From NCBI GenBank assembly GCA_009993885.1, contig JAACSN010000008.1, positions 30,362 to 94,361 on the forward strand: DNA of 64,000 nt, in the 5' to 3' direction. The position numbers were made by a program, and so were the translations under genes. The stretch comes from Alphaproteobacteria bacterium (GTDB lineage Bacteria; Pseudomonadota; Alphaproteobacteria; Caedimonadales; UBA9215). Shown here piece after piece: positions 10,425-13,422 of the stretch. The notes below the pieces were generated by a model. It saw only the letters and a list, made by a program, of their open reading frames with translations. It made no database searches and was not told where the DNA came from. How positions within the stretch are numbered: position 1 is the stretch's first letter; every line of letters begins with the position of its first letter.

Positions 10425-10603
10425 CTTTTATGAAGGCTATTTTTTGAAAAGGTTTTAGAGAGGACTCTTCGAAAGAAATTGTTTAGGCATGGTCTTTCAC
10501 AATTTTATATGGCATCATTACTAGAAGTGATATGGAAGTCTTTGCAAAAGACTCTTTTGCAAGAGTTTCTGTGATACCGCATGCTTTTATAGGGAGTTGT
10601 TAC

Positions 10604-12421
10604 GTGATAGACCATAAACATTTCTTTGAGTATTTCCAAAGGGAAATGGCCTACCTCCGTCATGAAGGGGGACGTTTTGCCGGCAGTTTTCCAAAGGTTG
10701 CCGGGCGTCTTGATTTTTCCAACGTAGCGTCATCGGATCCTCATGTTGAGCGTTTATTGCAATCTTTTTCTTTTTTAACGGCTCGTCTTCAACGGGATGT
10801 GGAAGATTTATTTCCACGCATTTCAACGGCTCTTCTTGAAACGCTTTATCCGCAATTTGTTGCGCCTCTTCCCTCATATACCGTTACAAAATTTGAAACT
10901 TGCGGGCAAAAAGGAAAATTGACAGGACGTTTTCGTGTCAATAAAGGCACACAGCTTTATGTGCATGGTCTGGACGGTGATATTTGTCGTTTTCAGACTT
11001 GCTCTGATCTTGATATTTATCCCATAAGTGTGGAATCTATTGATATTGTTCCGACTTTTGATTTGCCTAAAAAGGCGGGACATTTTTCGACTCACCGTGT
11101 TTTACGCATTCACTTAAAGTCCGTAGCAGGGGCGGTTTCAGAACTTGATCTTGGTAAAATGCGTTTTCATATTGTGGGTGATCCCATTTTGCAAAATAAA
11201 GTTTATGAAGCGCTTTTCCTTTCCGACCCCTTAACGGCCGTAAGCTATGGCTCCCGAGCCAATCCCACGCGGTATGACTTTCCGTTGCCTCATTTAACAA
11301 CAGCTGTTGGATTTGAAGACGATGAAGCCGTCATGCCTTACCCGGATCACGGACATCCGGGCTATCGTCTGTTGCAAGAGTATTTTGCCTATCCTCAAAA
11401 GTTTATGTTTTTTGATGTGGATGCCGCCGCTTTTAAGTCAGATGAAAAAGAATTTACGTTGTATATTGAAATTGCAGATGTTATCGCTCTGGAAGATAAA
11501 GATTTTGATGTGACGAATATTCAACTTGGGTGTGTTCCCATAGTTAATCTTTTTAAAAAGGTATCCGAGCCGATACGGATTACCCATAAAACCGTTGATT
11601 ATCGCTTGGTGGCCGATCAGCGCCGCGAGGATACCATGGAGGTTCATAGTATCCAACGGGTGCTCGGCAGTCGTGAGGGAGAACGTGATCCCATTGAATA
11701 CTCTCCTTATTTTAGCTATACCCACGCTGAAAAAGAAAAAAAACAAGCCTTGTTTTGGCATGCACGGCGCAGTTATTCCGATGATAGTCAATATCCCGGA
11801 AATGAAACCTATCTTTCTTTTATAGATTATGAATTTAAGGTGAGTCTTCCGGTTGATCATTCTGTTTATGCCGAAATATTATGTACCAACAGATCCCTTG
11901 CAAGATCTTTGACGGCAGGGACAGAGCTTCAAAGTGATCAGTCTATTCCTGTTGAGCGGATGTATTGTTTGGATCGTCCGACGGCACAGCATTACTTAAA
12001 TCGAGAAGCGCTAAGTCAGTGGCGTCTCATTTCTCACTTGGCCTTGGGGCACTTGTCTCTATCGGATAATGAGGTGAGTTTGAAAATGTTAAGAGAATTG
12101 GTAAGTCAGTATGGTGATTTTGAGGATGGGAGCGTTATCCCGGAATTAAATATTATGCGGAAGTTTGAGGCGCAACGTGTTACGCGACGTTTGGGATATG
12201 ATGCTTGGCGTGGTTTTGTCCACGGAACAAAATTTACCCTTACCATGGCAGATGCTATTAGCCGGGATACTCGCGTTTTTCTTTTTTCTCAGGTTTTAAA
12301 TCGTGTTTTGCCGCAATTTGCATCGGTGAATTCGTTTAGTGAATTTGAAGTTCAACGTATTAATGCAAAAGGAATTTGGAAACTATGGCAACCCCGCTCC
12401 GGAAACAAAGCCCTAGCATAG
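10604..12421 (+). CDS. tssF: Type VI secretion baseplate protein TssF (ImpG/VasA)
   Basis: FFEYFQREMAYLRHEGGRFAGSFPKVAGRL...SSDPHVERLLQSFSFLTARLQRDVEDLFPRISTALLETLYPQFVAPLPS is the TssF N-terminal signature. The longest ORF starts at 10532. I prefer the GTG at 10604, which is preceded by AGGGAG and gives a typical N-terminal length. Confidence 0.88.
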   Translation: MIDHKHFFEYFQREMAYLRHEGGRFAGSFPKVAGRLDFSNVASSDPHVERLLQSFSFLTARLQRDVEDLFPRISTALLETLYPQFVAPLPSYTVTKFETCGQKGKLTGRFRVNKGTQLYVHGLDGDICRFQTCSDLDIYPISVESIDIVPTFDLPKKAGHFSTHRVLRIHLKSVAGAVSELDLGKMRFHIVGDPILQNKVYEALFLSDPLTAVSYGSRANPTRYDFPLPHLTTAVGFEDDEAVMPYPDHGHPGYRLLQEYFAYPQKFMFFDVDAAAFKSDEKEFTLYIEIADVIALEDKDFDVTNIQLGCVPIVNLFKKVSEPIRITHKTVDYRLVADQRREDTMEVHSIQRVLGSREGERDPIEYSPYFSYTHAEKEKKQALFWHARRSYSDDSQYPGNETYLSFIDYEFKVSLPVDHSVYAEILCTNRSLARSLTAGTELQSDQSIPVERMYCLDRPTAQHYLNREALSQWRLISHLALGHLSLSDNEVSLKMLRELVSQYGDFEDGSVIPELNIMRKFEAQRVTRRLGYDAWRGFVHGTKFTLTMADAISRDTRVFLFSQVLNRVLPQFASVNSFSEFEVQRINAKGIWKLWQPRSGNKALA

Positions 12422-13422
12422 AACAAAAGCTTTTTGAAAAGCCTTATGAATTTGAGTTTGCCCAAGCGATTAAACTCTTAGAAAATATCTACGCCCATAA
12501 AAAAAGGCTGGGTGAAACATCGCAAGCAAGCTTTGAGTCCGTACGTATTAAATCTAATATTTTGCTGTCGACGCCGCCGAGTGACTTATATTCTTTGACG
12601 ATGCCTGCATCGGAAAAAGATCCTGTGACCCTAACGATTAACTTTATGGGGATTGCCGGTCAAACCGGCCCTTTGCCAAATGTGTATGCCGAACTAATCC
12701 TTGATCGTTTAAGGGTAAAAGATTATGCTTTTCGAGAATTTCTAGATATTTTCAACCACCGCTTAAGTTCTATTCATTATCGAATACATGTTAAATATAC
12801 CGTTGCGTTAAATCCGAATCTTCCGGGTGAAACGGAAACTGCTTTGGTTTTAAAGCATTTGGGAGGGCTCTCTTGTGCCGGAGAAGAGAGCAACGGGTTA
12901 ATTCCTTTGCGGGGCTATTTGAAGTATGCGGGGCTCTTGTGGCAGAAACCTCATTCTGCCATGGGGCTCCAAATTGCCTTAAAGGATTATTTTCAACTTC
13001 CTGTTTATGTTCAGCAATTTATCGGTCGCTGGTTCACAATTGAAGAGGAGGAACGGACGTTCCTTGGAGAAAAAGGACGTCATGGTGTTTTGGGTCAAGG
13101 AGCCGCCCTTGGCACAAAGGTTTGGATTCACGGAGAGAAGATACGTGTGGTTGTCGGCCCTTTAGATCTTGTGGACTATTGTCGCATGTTGCCGGGTGCA
13201 AAATATAATAAACTTTTTTCTGAATTTACGCGTCATTATCTCGGGCGTGAAAATCTTTTTGATTATCGGATTTCCTTGAAAAGGGATCAGGCAACCCCGA
13301 CGCGTTTGGACGGCAGGTCGGCGTTGGGATGGACTTCTTGGATGATTGAAGAATCTAAAGATTATATGCCGGAATCTATCGTTGTGAGAGCAGATGATCC
13401 TTTGCACAAGGGGATGCATTGA
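12376..13422 (+). CDS. tssG: Type VI secretion baseplate protein TssG (ImpH/VasB)
   Basis: 348 aa. PYEFEFAQAIKLLE resembles the TssG N-terminal motif (f.FfQavRlLe). The size is right and the start overlaps the tssF 3' end, as in canonical clusters. Confidence 0.8.
   Translation: METMATPLRKQSPSIEQKLFEKPYEFEFAQAIKLLENIYAHKKRLGETSQASFESVRIKSNILLSTPPSDLYSLTMPASEKDPVTLTINFMGIAGQTGPLPNVYAELILDRLRVKDYAFREFLDIFNHRLSSIHYRIHVKYTVALNPNLPGETETALVLKHLGGLSCAGEESNGLIPLRGYLKYAGLLWQKPHSAMGLQIALKDYFQLPVYVQQFIGRWFTIEEEERTFLGEKGRHGVLGQGAALGTKVWIHGEKIRVVVGPLDLVDYCRMLPGAKYNKLFSEFTRHYLGRENLFDYRISLKRDQATPTRLDGRSALGWTSWMIEESKDYMPESIVVRADDPLHKGMH

What the first reader, a model, noticed from the sequence alone, without database searches (positions are those of the whole stretch)
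10532..13422. Intact but orphan tssF-tssG (T6SS baseplate wedge) pair attached to the end of a late-flagellar gene string
The translations carry the TssF (ImpG/VasA) and TssG (ImpH/VasB) signatures. Both are full length (about 605-629 aa and 348 aa), and they overlap by about 40 nt, as in canonical clusters. Nothing else in the 64 kb resembles TssA/B/C/E/K/J/L/M, Hcp, VgrG, PAAR or ClpV. In known T6SS loci tssE sits immediately upstream of tssF. Here the upstream same-strand neighbour, only about 110-180 nt away, is fliW, preceded by flgL, flgK and flgI. TssF and TssG are only known to function as part of the TssE-F-G-K wedge. An isolated but uninterrupted pair therefore suggests one of three things: a highly scattered T6SS, a recently stranded relic, or a repurposed module that is possibly co-expressed with flagellar late genes. 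No obvious terminator separates fliW from tssF.
Basis: partly seen in the sequence, partly recalled or inferred. Interest (0 to 1): 0.75.

Follow-up and report, generated by a model that had tools for sequence, protein, structure and literature searches.

The report
Holosporales split T6SS: tssF-tssG locus
The intact tssF-tssG pair next to flagellar genes is real, but it is most likely the usual stand-alone baseplate locus of the type VI secretion system that Holosporales symbionts keep scattered around their genomes, so it is ordinary for this lineage.

Summary
The window holds a full-length tssF (GTG 10604-12421, 605 aa) and tssG (12385-13422, 345 aa). They overlap by 37 nt and lie directly downstream of flgI-flgK-flgL-fliW. 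No other T6SS gene appears in the window or in about 20 kb of extra contig.

The pair is probably not a true orphan. The organism is an uncultured Holosporales bacterium: its closest genome is MAG UBA9215, and its TypA is closest to Paracaedimonas, Caedimonas and Bodocaedibacter. Midha et al. 2021 describe the T6SS of these families as split over four or more loci, one of which is a stand-alone [tssG-tssF] pair, and they found it transcribed in Ca. Bodocaedibacter.

Seven relatives of the window's TssF (44-94% identity) also carry the pair alone, with the same 37-nt overlap. Four have it after fliW and three among unrelated housekeeping genes. Selection is strongly purifying: dN/dS is 0.04 for tssF and 0.06 for tssG, so this is not a relic. 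A conserved promoter-like box upstream of tssF occurs whatever the upstream gene is, which suggests the pair has its own promoter.

I could not show the other T6SS loci in this organism itself. Interest is low.

The parts
10604..12421 (+). tssF, T6SS baseplate wedge subunit, 605 aa, GTG start.
   Evidence: PF05947 E 3e-161 over the full profile. TIGR03359 scores 535 bits against a cut-off of 260. It matches the solved EAEC TssF structure 6GIY_A at E 3e-39 over residues 9-583. Homologues are almost all 599-616 aa. The start and ribosome-binding site are conserved in L015, L016, L017 and L008. dN/dS is 0.039 against L015.
12385..13422 (+). tssG, T6SS baseplate wedge subunit, 345 aa, ATG start. 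An AGGA motif lies 11 nt upstream, inside tssF.
   Evidence: PF06996 E 5e-79. TIGR03347 scores 249 bits against a cut-off of 143. It matches 6GIY_C TssG at E 5e-13. The JGI gene call uses the same start. dN/dS is 0.064 against L015. Sequence read.
12385..12421 (+). 37-nt tssF/tssG overlap, probably used for translational coupling.
   Evidence: The same 37-nt overlap occurs in Holosporales relatives L007, L008, L009 and L020. It also occurs in the contiguous clusters of P. aeruginosa H3-T6SS and a marine Rhodospirillales-like scaffold.
10504..10518 (+). Conserved promoter-like box TTTTATATGGCATCAT. Its core TGGCATCAT (10510-10518) reads as an extended -10 element, TG-n-CAYNAT. Function is inferred, not shown.
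   Evidence: Columns T83, T85, T87, T89, G90, G91, C92, A93, A96 and T97 are invariant in alignment A1 of five fliW-tssF spacers. Similar boxes lie upstream of tssF in L007, L009 and L020, where the upstream genes differ. The surrounding block is 85.5% and 71% identical to L015 and L016, against 58% and 48.5% at four-fold sites of tssF.
10591..10596 (+). AGGGAG ribosome-binding site, 7 nt upstream of the GTG start of tssF.
   Evidence: Invariant in all five aligned loci. Sequence read.
10519..10579 (+). Strain-private insertion in the tssF leader. It carries a weak AU-rich hairpin (10541-10563) and the non-conserved ATG at 10532.
   Evidence: It appears as a gap in L015 and L016 in alignment A1. 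The hairpin was listed by the terminator scan, which found 7 sites against 5.0 expected. The folding z-score is -1.08.
4975..10424 (+). Neighbouring late-flagellar string (flgI, two small ORFs, flgK, flgL-like, fliW). This is context, not part of the T6SS unit.
   Evidence: Pfam hits for FlgI, FlgK_D1 and FliW. NCBIfam hits for FlgK, FliW and a sub-threshold flagellin/FlgL match. Synteny with tssFG is kept in L015, L016, L017 and L008 but not in L007, L009 or L020.

Best explanation
tssF and tssG form the stand-alone baseplate-wedge operon of a dispersed type VI secretion system in an uncultured Holosporales bacterium, probably a symbiont of a protist.

**Shown here**
- Both genes are intact, full-length members of their families.
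- They are under strong purifying selection.
- They keep the ancestral 37-nt overlap.
- They occur as an isolated pair in every Holosporales relative examined, in at least four different genomic neighbourhoods.
- The closest non-Holosporales relative examined still has the contiguous order tssB-tssC-hcp-tssE-tssF-tssG-clpV-vgrG.

**From the literature**
- These genes are transcribed in Ca. Bodocaedibacter.

**Inferred**
- Genome rearrangement in the symbiont lineage broke up an ancestral Rhodospirillales-type cluster.
- The overlapping, probably translationally coupled tssF-tssG unit survived as one piece. In one subclade it came to rest downstream of fliW.
- It is transcribed mainly from its own promoter, marked by a conserved extended -10-like box, TGGCATCAT, at 10510-10518.
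- The products assemble as a (TssF)2(TssG)1 complex that joins TssK and TssE, encoded elsewhere, into the six wedges around VgrG. This follows the solved E. coli wedge (PDB 6GIY, 6N38).
For: - **Family membership:**
- **Taxonomy:** the nearest GTDB genome is 'Holosporales bacterium UBA9215', with TssF 94% identical. TypA is 74% identical to Ca. Paracaedimonas acanthamoebae and Caedibacter sp., 71% to Caedimonas and 69% to Ca. Bodocaedibacter.
- **Isolated pair in relatives:**
  - L015, L016, L017 and L008 carry it after fliW.
  - L007 carries it after an unrelated gene and a strong terminator.
  - L009 and L010 carry it between erpA-like and cvpA genes.
  - L020 carries it between rpoZ/relA and thioredoxin.
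- **Literature:** PMC8163844 main text and Supplementary Table 3. PMC11909080, PMC9992710 and the 2025 Bodo preprint state that the T6SS is conserved across Holosporales.
- **Selection:** dN/dS is 0.039 for tssF and 0.064 for tssG at dS 0.78-1.0. The flagellar neighbours give 0.05-0.095.
- **Ancestral contiguous cluster with the same 37-nt overlap:** L022 and L021.
- **Own regulatory region:** the promoter-proximal block is 85.5% and 71% identical to L015 and L016. Four-fold degenerate sites of tssF are only 58% and 48.5% identical. A TGGCAYNAT-like box lies upstream of tssF in all eight Holosporales loci whatever the upstream gene is.
Against: - The other T6SS genes were not found for this organism itself. 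Only about 84 kb of its genome could be read.
- A TssC search returned only Rhodospirillales- and Thermoanaerobaculia-type proteins.
- The promoter is inferred from conservation alone.
- No strong terminator separates fliW from tssF, so read-through is possible.
- The review PMC11909080 calls the Holosporales T6SS non-standard, with some components apparently missing. No firing or secretion has been shown experimentally in any Holosporales.
Confidence: 0.85

Rival explanations
1. True orphan or repurposed module. This lineage has lost the rest of the T6SS and keeps TssF-TssG for another job, for instance with another contractile device or with the flagellum.
For: No other T6SS gene appears in about 84 kb. 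Purifying selection shows the pair does something. The fliW adjacency is kept in five genomes despite saturated synonymous divergence.
Against: The same isolated arrangement is the norm in Holosporales families reported to hold all the other core genes elsewhere. The T6SS is reported as conserved in nearly all Holosporales. 84 kb is only a small part of the genome. TssF-TssG has no known function outside a baseplate.
Confidence: 0.04
2. Part of the flagellar late operon. tssFG is transcribed by read-through from flgK-flgL-fliW, so baseplate supply is tied to flagellar completion.
For: The genes share a strand with a gap of only 115-179 nt. There is no significant terminator. The adjacency is conserved in L015, L016, L017 and L008. 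The tssF ribosome-binding region (AYAGGGAG) resembles a CsrA-type GGA site, and FliW is a CsrA antagonist. That last point rests on my own knowledge of the FliW-CsrA system and on inference.
Against: The adjacency is absent from L007, L009 and L020, where the pair is equally intact. A constrained promoter-like box lies between fliW and tssF and recurs in lineages without fliW upstream. No csrA was found in the window or loci with a motif search. The stretch just after the fliW stop evolves at about the neutral rate.
Confidence: 0.08
3. Decaying relic. The pair is a recently stranded remnant on its way to becoming a pseudogene.
For: Symbiont genomes do erode, and no partner genes are nearby.
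Against: Both reading frames are full length and cover their profiles completely. dN/dS is 0.04-0.06. Orthologues are intact down to 44% identity. Seven assemblies from different samples show no differences over 3 kb.
Confidence: 0.02

Closest known systems
Dispersed T6SS of Ca. Bodocaedibacter vickermanii, Paracaedibacteraceae and Caedimonadaceae (Midha et al. 2021, PMC8163844); tssF/tssG are CPBP_00125-00126
   Same: It has a stand-alone two-gene tssF-tssG locus away from all other T6SS genes. The host lineage is the same order (Holosporales), with similar G+C (about 41-42%) and flagellar genes present.
   Different: This is a different, undescribed genus: TypA is 69% identical to Bodocaedibacter. 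Here the pair lies directly after fliW, a position the paper does not mention. The other loci were not seen for this organism.
Contiguous proteobacterial T6SS-i clusters: P. aeruginosa H3-T6SS (L021) and a marine Rhodospirillales-like scaffold (L022)
   Same: They carry homologous TssF (35% and 42% identity to the window) and TssG. The 37-nt tssF/tssG overlap is identical. The submodules tssB-tssC-hcp, tssK-L-M-A and vgrG-ywqK match the fragments reported for Holosporales.
   Different: In those clusters tssE lies directly upstream and clpV directly downstream of the pair. Here the neighbours are fliW and a lineage-specific secreted protein.
E. coli EAEC Sci-1 TssK-F-G-E wedge (PDB 6GIY, 6GJ1, 6N38)
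   Same: Sequence homology covers almost the whole of TssF (residues 9-583) and the N-terminal half of TssG. The (TssF)2(TssG)1 mechanism is inferred from this structure.
   Different: The relationship is distant (E 3e-39 and 5e-13). No structure or interaction data exist for any Holosporales protein.

Membership tests
TssF (PF05947 / TIGR03359) | Full-length match to the family profile above the curated cut-off | tested here: met
   Pfam E 3e-161 over profile positions 4-607 of 608. The TIGR03359 equivalog scores 535 bits against a cut-off of 260. Homology to solved TssF 6GIY_A.
TssG (PF06996 / TIGR03347) | Full-length match to the family profile above the curated cut-off | tested here: met
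   Pfam E 5e-79 over profile positions 2-303 of 304. TIGR03347 scores 249 bits against a cut-off of 143. Matches 6GIY_C.
Canonical tssF-tssG gene unit | Same strand, tssG start inside the 3' end of tssF (37-nt overlap) | tested here: met
   Window 12385-12421. The overlap is identical in L007, L008, L009, L020, L021 and L022.
Complete T6SS-i system | tssA, B, C, E, K, L, M, hcp and vgrG present in the same genome | not testable with these tools
   None were found in the window plus about 20 kb of flanks. The rest of the genome was out of reach. Related families are reported to have them.
Contiguous (single-locus) T6SS cluster | tssE immediately upstream of tssF, with sheath and clpV genes adjacent | tested here: not met
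   fliW lies upstream and a signal-peptide ORF, LysR and rpoN lie downstream.
Holosporales dispersed T6SS | Stand-alone [tssF-tssG] locus flanked by non-T6SS genes | tested here: met
   True of the window and of seven relatives at 44-94% TssF identity. It matches the arrangement described in PMC8163844.
Holosporales dispersed T6SS | Host organism belongs to the Holosporales | tested here: met
   The nearest GTDB genome is 'Holosporales bacterium UBA9215'. TypA is nearest to Paracaedimonas, Caedibacter, Caedimonas and Bodocaedibacter. An F-box protein in the window fits a life with eukaryotic hosts.
Pseudogene / relic | Relaxed selection or disrupted reading frames | tested here: not met
   dN/dS is 0.039 and 0.064. 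The reading frames are intact.
Flagellar late operon | Linkage to flagellar genes conserved wherever the pair occurs, with no promoter of its own | tested here: not met
   Linkage is missing in L007, L009 and L020. A conserved promoter-like box lies upstream of tssF. Transcription itself was not tested.

The most novel reading that the evidence does not exclude
This Holosporales lineage has lost the other T6SS genes and keeps TssF-TssG under strong selection for a T6SS-independent role. That role might be tied to late flagellar assembly through read-through from fliW.
Probability: 0.04. Interest if true: 0.8.

Novelty: new member of a known kind. Interest (0 to 1): 0.15.

Why it matters
The finding adds an uncultured Holosporales lineage, close to MAG UBA9215, to those with a fragmented T6SS. 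It gives the system an anatomical detail. The 37-nt overlapping tssF-tssG unit is the piece that stays together when the cluster breaks up. It also appears to carry its own conserved promoter-like box.

Scattered systems like this are missed by cluster-based detectors, so a pair that looks orphaned should prompt a genome-wide profile search before any claim of novelty. Nothing here changes how T6SS baseplates are understood.

Tried and rejected
- **Finding the organism's other T6SS genes.**
  - Extending the contig about 10 kb beyond each end of the window found no T6SS gene.
  - I took TssC from the nearest contiguous cluster (L022) and searched the protein collection. All 120 listed hits were 73-94% identical proteins of Rhodospirillales, Thermoanaerobaculia and similar types, with no Holosporales candidate. 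TssC is too conserved and too abundant for this route.
  - I left the metagenome scan unused. The one scan run listed hits by identity to the query, and a similar ranking would favour non-Holosporales TssC.
- **Sigma-54 promoter upstream of tssF.** The TGGCA box has no GC at the -12 position in any lineage, so I rejected it (read).
- **Intrinsic terminator between fliW and tssF.** The only candidate is a strain-private AU-rich hairpin with z = -1.08.
- **csrA near fliW.** A motif search of the window and loci found none.
- **Hidden TssE, Hcp or PAAR among the small or unannotated ORFs.** No T6SS family appeared even at E up to 1.
- **Truncated tssG in one assembly (L006).** The DNA is identical to the window, so this is only a gene-calling difference.
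- **Cluster names for TssF relatives.** These added only 'Alphaproteobacteria' and 'Rhodospirillales' labels.
- **Literature search for UBA9215.** It returned only an unrelated MAG catalogue.
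Full report
**1. Observation**

The window carries a TssF gene and a TssG gene at the stated place.
- Pfam matches cover practically the whole of both profiles: PF05947 at E 3e-161 and PF06996 at E 5e-79.
- The NCBIfam equivalog models are passed by a wide margin: TIGR03359 scores 535 bits against a cut-off of 260, and TIGR03347 scores 249 against 143.
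- Both proteins are homologous to the solved E. coli wedge subunits: 6GIY_A at E 3e-39 over residues 9-583, and 6GIY_C at E 5e-13.

The coordinates need small corrections.
- Homologues of TssF are almost all 599-616 aa.
- In the closest relatives the reading frame upstream of the GTG at 10604 is closed, or differs.
- An AGGGAG ribosome-binding site 7 nt before that GTG is invariant.
- The ATG at 10532 lies in an insertion private to this strain.
- So tssF is 10604-12421 (605 aa).
- tssG most likely starts at ATG 12385 (345 aa). This is also the JGI gene call. An AGGA motif lies upstream. The overlap is therefore 37 nt.

- flgI;
- two small ORFs, one with a faint rod-binding hint;
- flgK;
- a flagellin-family flgL-like gene, below the NCBIfam thresholds;
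- fliW.

No other T6SS gene is present nearby.
- All non-nested ORFs of 100 aa or more were scanned against Pfam.
- The unannotated ORFs were also scanned against NCBIfam.
- tblastn with all 15 proteins of a complete P. aeruginosa T6SS cluster hit only tssF and tssG.

**2. Whose genome this is**

- The same sequence occurs, without a single difference over 3 kb, in at least seven assemblies of different metagenome samples, on contigs of up to about 106 kb.
- The nearest species representative in GTDB is 'Holosporales bacterium UBA9215', with TssF 94% identical. Two unnamed alphaproteobacterial MAGs follow at 90% and 74%.
- The translational GTPase TypA encoded in the window is 74% identical to that of Ca. 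Paracaedimonas acanthamoebae and of Caedibacter sp. 37-49. It is 71% identical to Caedimonas and 69% to Ca. Bodocaedibacter vickermanii.
- The window also encodes an F-box protein, a typical trait of bacteria that live inside eukaryotic cells.

The organism is therefore an uncultured member of the Holosporales, near the Caedimonadaceae and Paracaedibacteraceae.

**3. The isolated pair is the rule in this order**

I looked at the surroundings of TssF relatives over a range of divergence.
- L015, L016, L017 and L008 (94, 90, 74 and 62% TssF identity) keep the whole string flgI-orf-orf-flgK-flgL-fliW-tssF-tssG.
- L007 (62%) has the pair after an unrelated 516-aa gene and a strong terminator.
- L009 and L010, from a MAG named 'Holosporales bacterium' (44%), have it between an erpA-like gene and cvpA.
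- L020 (45%) has it between rpoZ/relA and thioredoxin.
- No other T6SS gene lies within 10 kb in any of these. In the loci with gene calls (L007, L008, L009, L010, L020) the 37-nt overlap is retained.

The closest relative outside this group that I examined is a marine Rhodospirillales-like scaffold with TssF 42% identical. It has the contiguous order tssB-tssC-hcp-tssE-tssF-tssG-clpV-vgrG...PAAR with the same 37-nt overlap. The P. aeruginosa H3 cluster is organised the same way.

**4. Literature**

- Midha et al. [quoted passage not shown]
- Their Supplementary Table 3 lists the following genes for Ca. B. vickermanii, all with RNA-seq reads except the last:
  - tssF/tssG as CPBP_00125-126;
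  - tssE alone at 00258;
  - vgrG at 00353 and 00355;
  - tssJ-like/K/L/M/A at 00933-937;
  - tssB/C/hcp at 00985-987;
  - a DUF4280 gene at 01201.
- A 2025 review calls the T6SS conserved in almost all sequenced Holosporales except Holospora, and probably non-standard (PMC11909080).
- Two further papers say the same.

The 'orphan' pair is thus a described feature of the group.

**5. Selection**

Against the UBA9215 orthologues, dN/dS (Nei-Gojobori) is 0.039 for tssF (dS 0.78) and 0.064 for tssG (dS 1.0). This is as low as, or lower than, the values for the flagellar neighbours, which give 0.05-0.095. At greater distances TssF is clearly better conserved than FlgK, FlgL or FliW. Against L008, TssF is 62% identical, compared with 46%, 33% and 44% for those three. 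That rules out a decaying relic.

**6. Expression (inferred only)**

- The first 42 aligned columns after the fliW stop diverge at about the neutral rate. They are 62% and 36% identical to L015 and L016.
- The next 62 columns are 85.5% and 71% identical. Four-fold degenerate sites of tssF are only 58% and 48.5% identical.
- Within this block the motif T-T-T-TGGCA--AT is invariant in all five fliW-linked loci. In the window it reads TGGCATCAT at 10510-10518.
- Similar boxes lie 55-105 nt upstream of tssF in the lineages with other upstream genes: TGGTATCCT in L007, TGGCATTGT in L009 and TGGCGCCAT in L020.
- The box reads like an extended -10 element (TG-n-CAYNAT). It does not fit a sigma-54 promoter, because no lineage has GC at the -12 position.
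- I therefore think the pair has its own promoter.
- Read-through from fliW cannot be excluded. The only terminator-like hairpin, at 10541-10563, is weak (z = -1.08), private to this strain, and no more than chance would give.

**7. Mechanism**

By homology with the solved wedge (6GIY, 6N38), two TssF and one TssG form the core of each of six baseplate wedges. These bind TssK and the gp25-like TssE, surround VgrG and dock on the membrane complex. That description is established knowledge of the family, not something tested here.

The conserved gene overlap suggests translational coupling. Coupling would explain why these two genes stayed together when rearrangements in the symbiont lineage scattered the rest of the cluster.

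The position after fliW is best read as a rearrangement inherited within one shallow subclade. Its most distant member examined, L008, still has TypA 88% identical to the window's.

**8. What is missing**

I could not show the sheath, membrane-complex or spike genes in this organism itself.
- Only about 84 kb of its genome was within reach.
- The one genome-collection scan went to TssF.
- A TssC search found only Rhodospirillales- and Thermoanaerobaculia-type proteins.

A T6SS-independent role therefore remains formally possible. I rate it at about 4%.

**9. Verdict**

This is a new member of a known kind, and its interest is low.

Noticed in passing
window 10504-10518; L007, L009, L020 and L008 about 55-105 nt upstream of tssF: A conserved TGGCAYNAT-like box lies upstream of tssF in all Holosporales loci, whatever the upstream gene is. 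In L017 and L008 it forms part of an inverted repeat (ATGGCACAAT-N9-ATTGTGCCAT; GCCACA-N7-TGTGGC). It could be an extended -10 promoter or a regulator binding site.
   Followed up: partly
window about 10519-10579: An insertion of roughly 57 nt in the tssF leader, absent from the closest relatives L015 and L016. It carries an AU-rich hairpin (10541-10563) and creates the spurious in-frame ATG at 10532.
   Followed up: partly
window 41132-41863 (+): A 243-aa protein with a eukaryote-type F-box domain (PF12937, E 4e-9), lying in a low-GC stretch (36%). It is a likely host-directed effector, as in amoeba symbionts.
   Followed up: no
window 20470-27479 (+): A same-strand block of five genes (241, 794, 290, 237 and 682 aa). 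Four have no Pfam or NCBIfam match. The fifth is a sub-threshold outer-membrane beta-barrel. This may be a lineage-specific envelope or secretion module.
   Followed up: no
window 13511-14014 (+): A 167-aa protein with a signal peptide lies directly downstream of tssG and matches no family. tblastn did not find it in L016 or L008, so it is not a conserved part of the tssFG unit.
   Followed up: partly
window 14373-16963: A LysR-type regulator (+) and rpoN (-) lie just downstream of the pair. The tssF upstream region has no sigma-54 -24/-12 promoter.
   Followed up: partly
window 10425-13422 compared with L001-L006 and L011: There were no nucleotide differences over 3 kb among seven assemblies from different metagenome samples (JGI, ENA, Logan). 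This points to a clonal population that recurs across samples.
   Followed up: yes
window 42699-48070 (-): An arn-like operon (epimerase/dehydratase, GT2 glycosyltransferase, DegT aminotransferase, small EamA/SMR protein, ArnT-like transferase), probably for lipid A or LPS modification.
   Followed up: no
L012 18119-20355 (beyond the window's 3' end): A DNA cytosine methylase next to an EcoRII-C endonuclease gene (a restriction-modification pair), close to a tyrosine recombinase.
   Followed up: no
window 31267-33429 (-): A second flagellar locus (flhB, fliR, fliQ) lies 18 kb from the flgI-fliW string, so the flagellar genes are dispersed in this genome as well.
   Followed up: no
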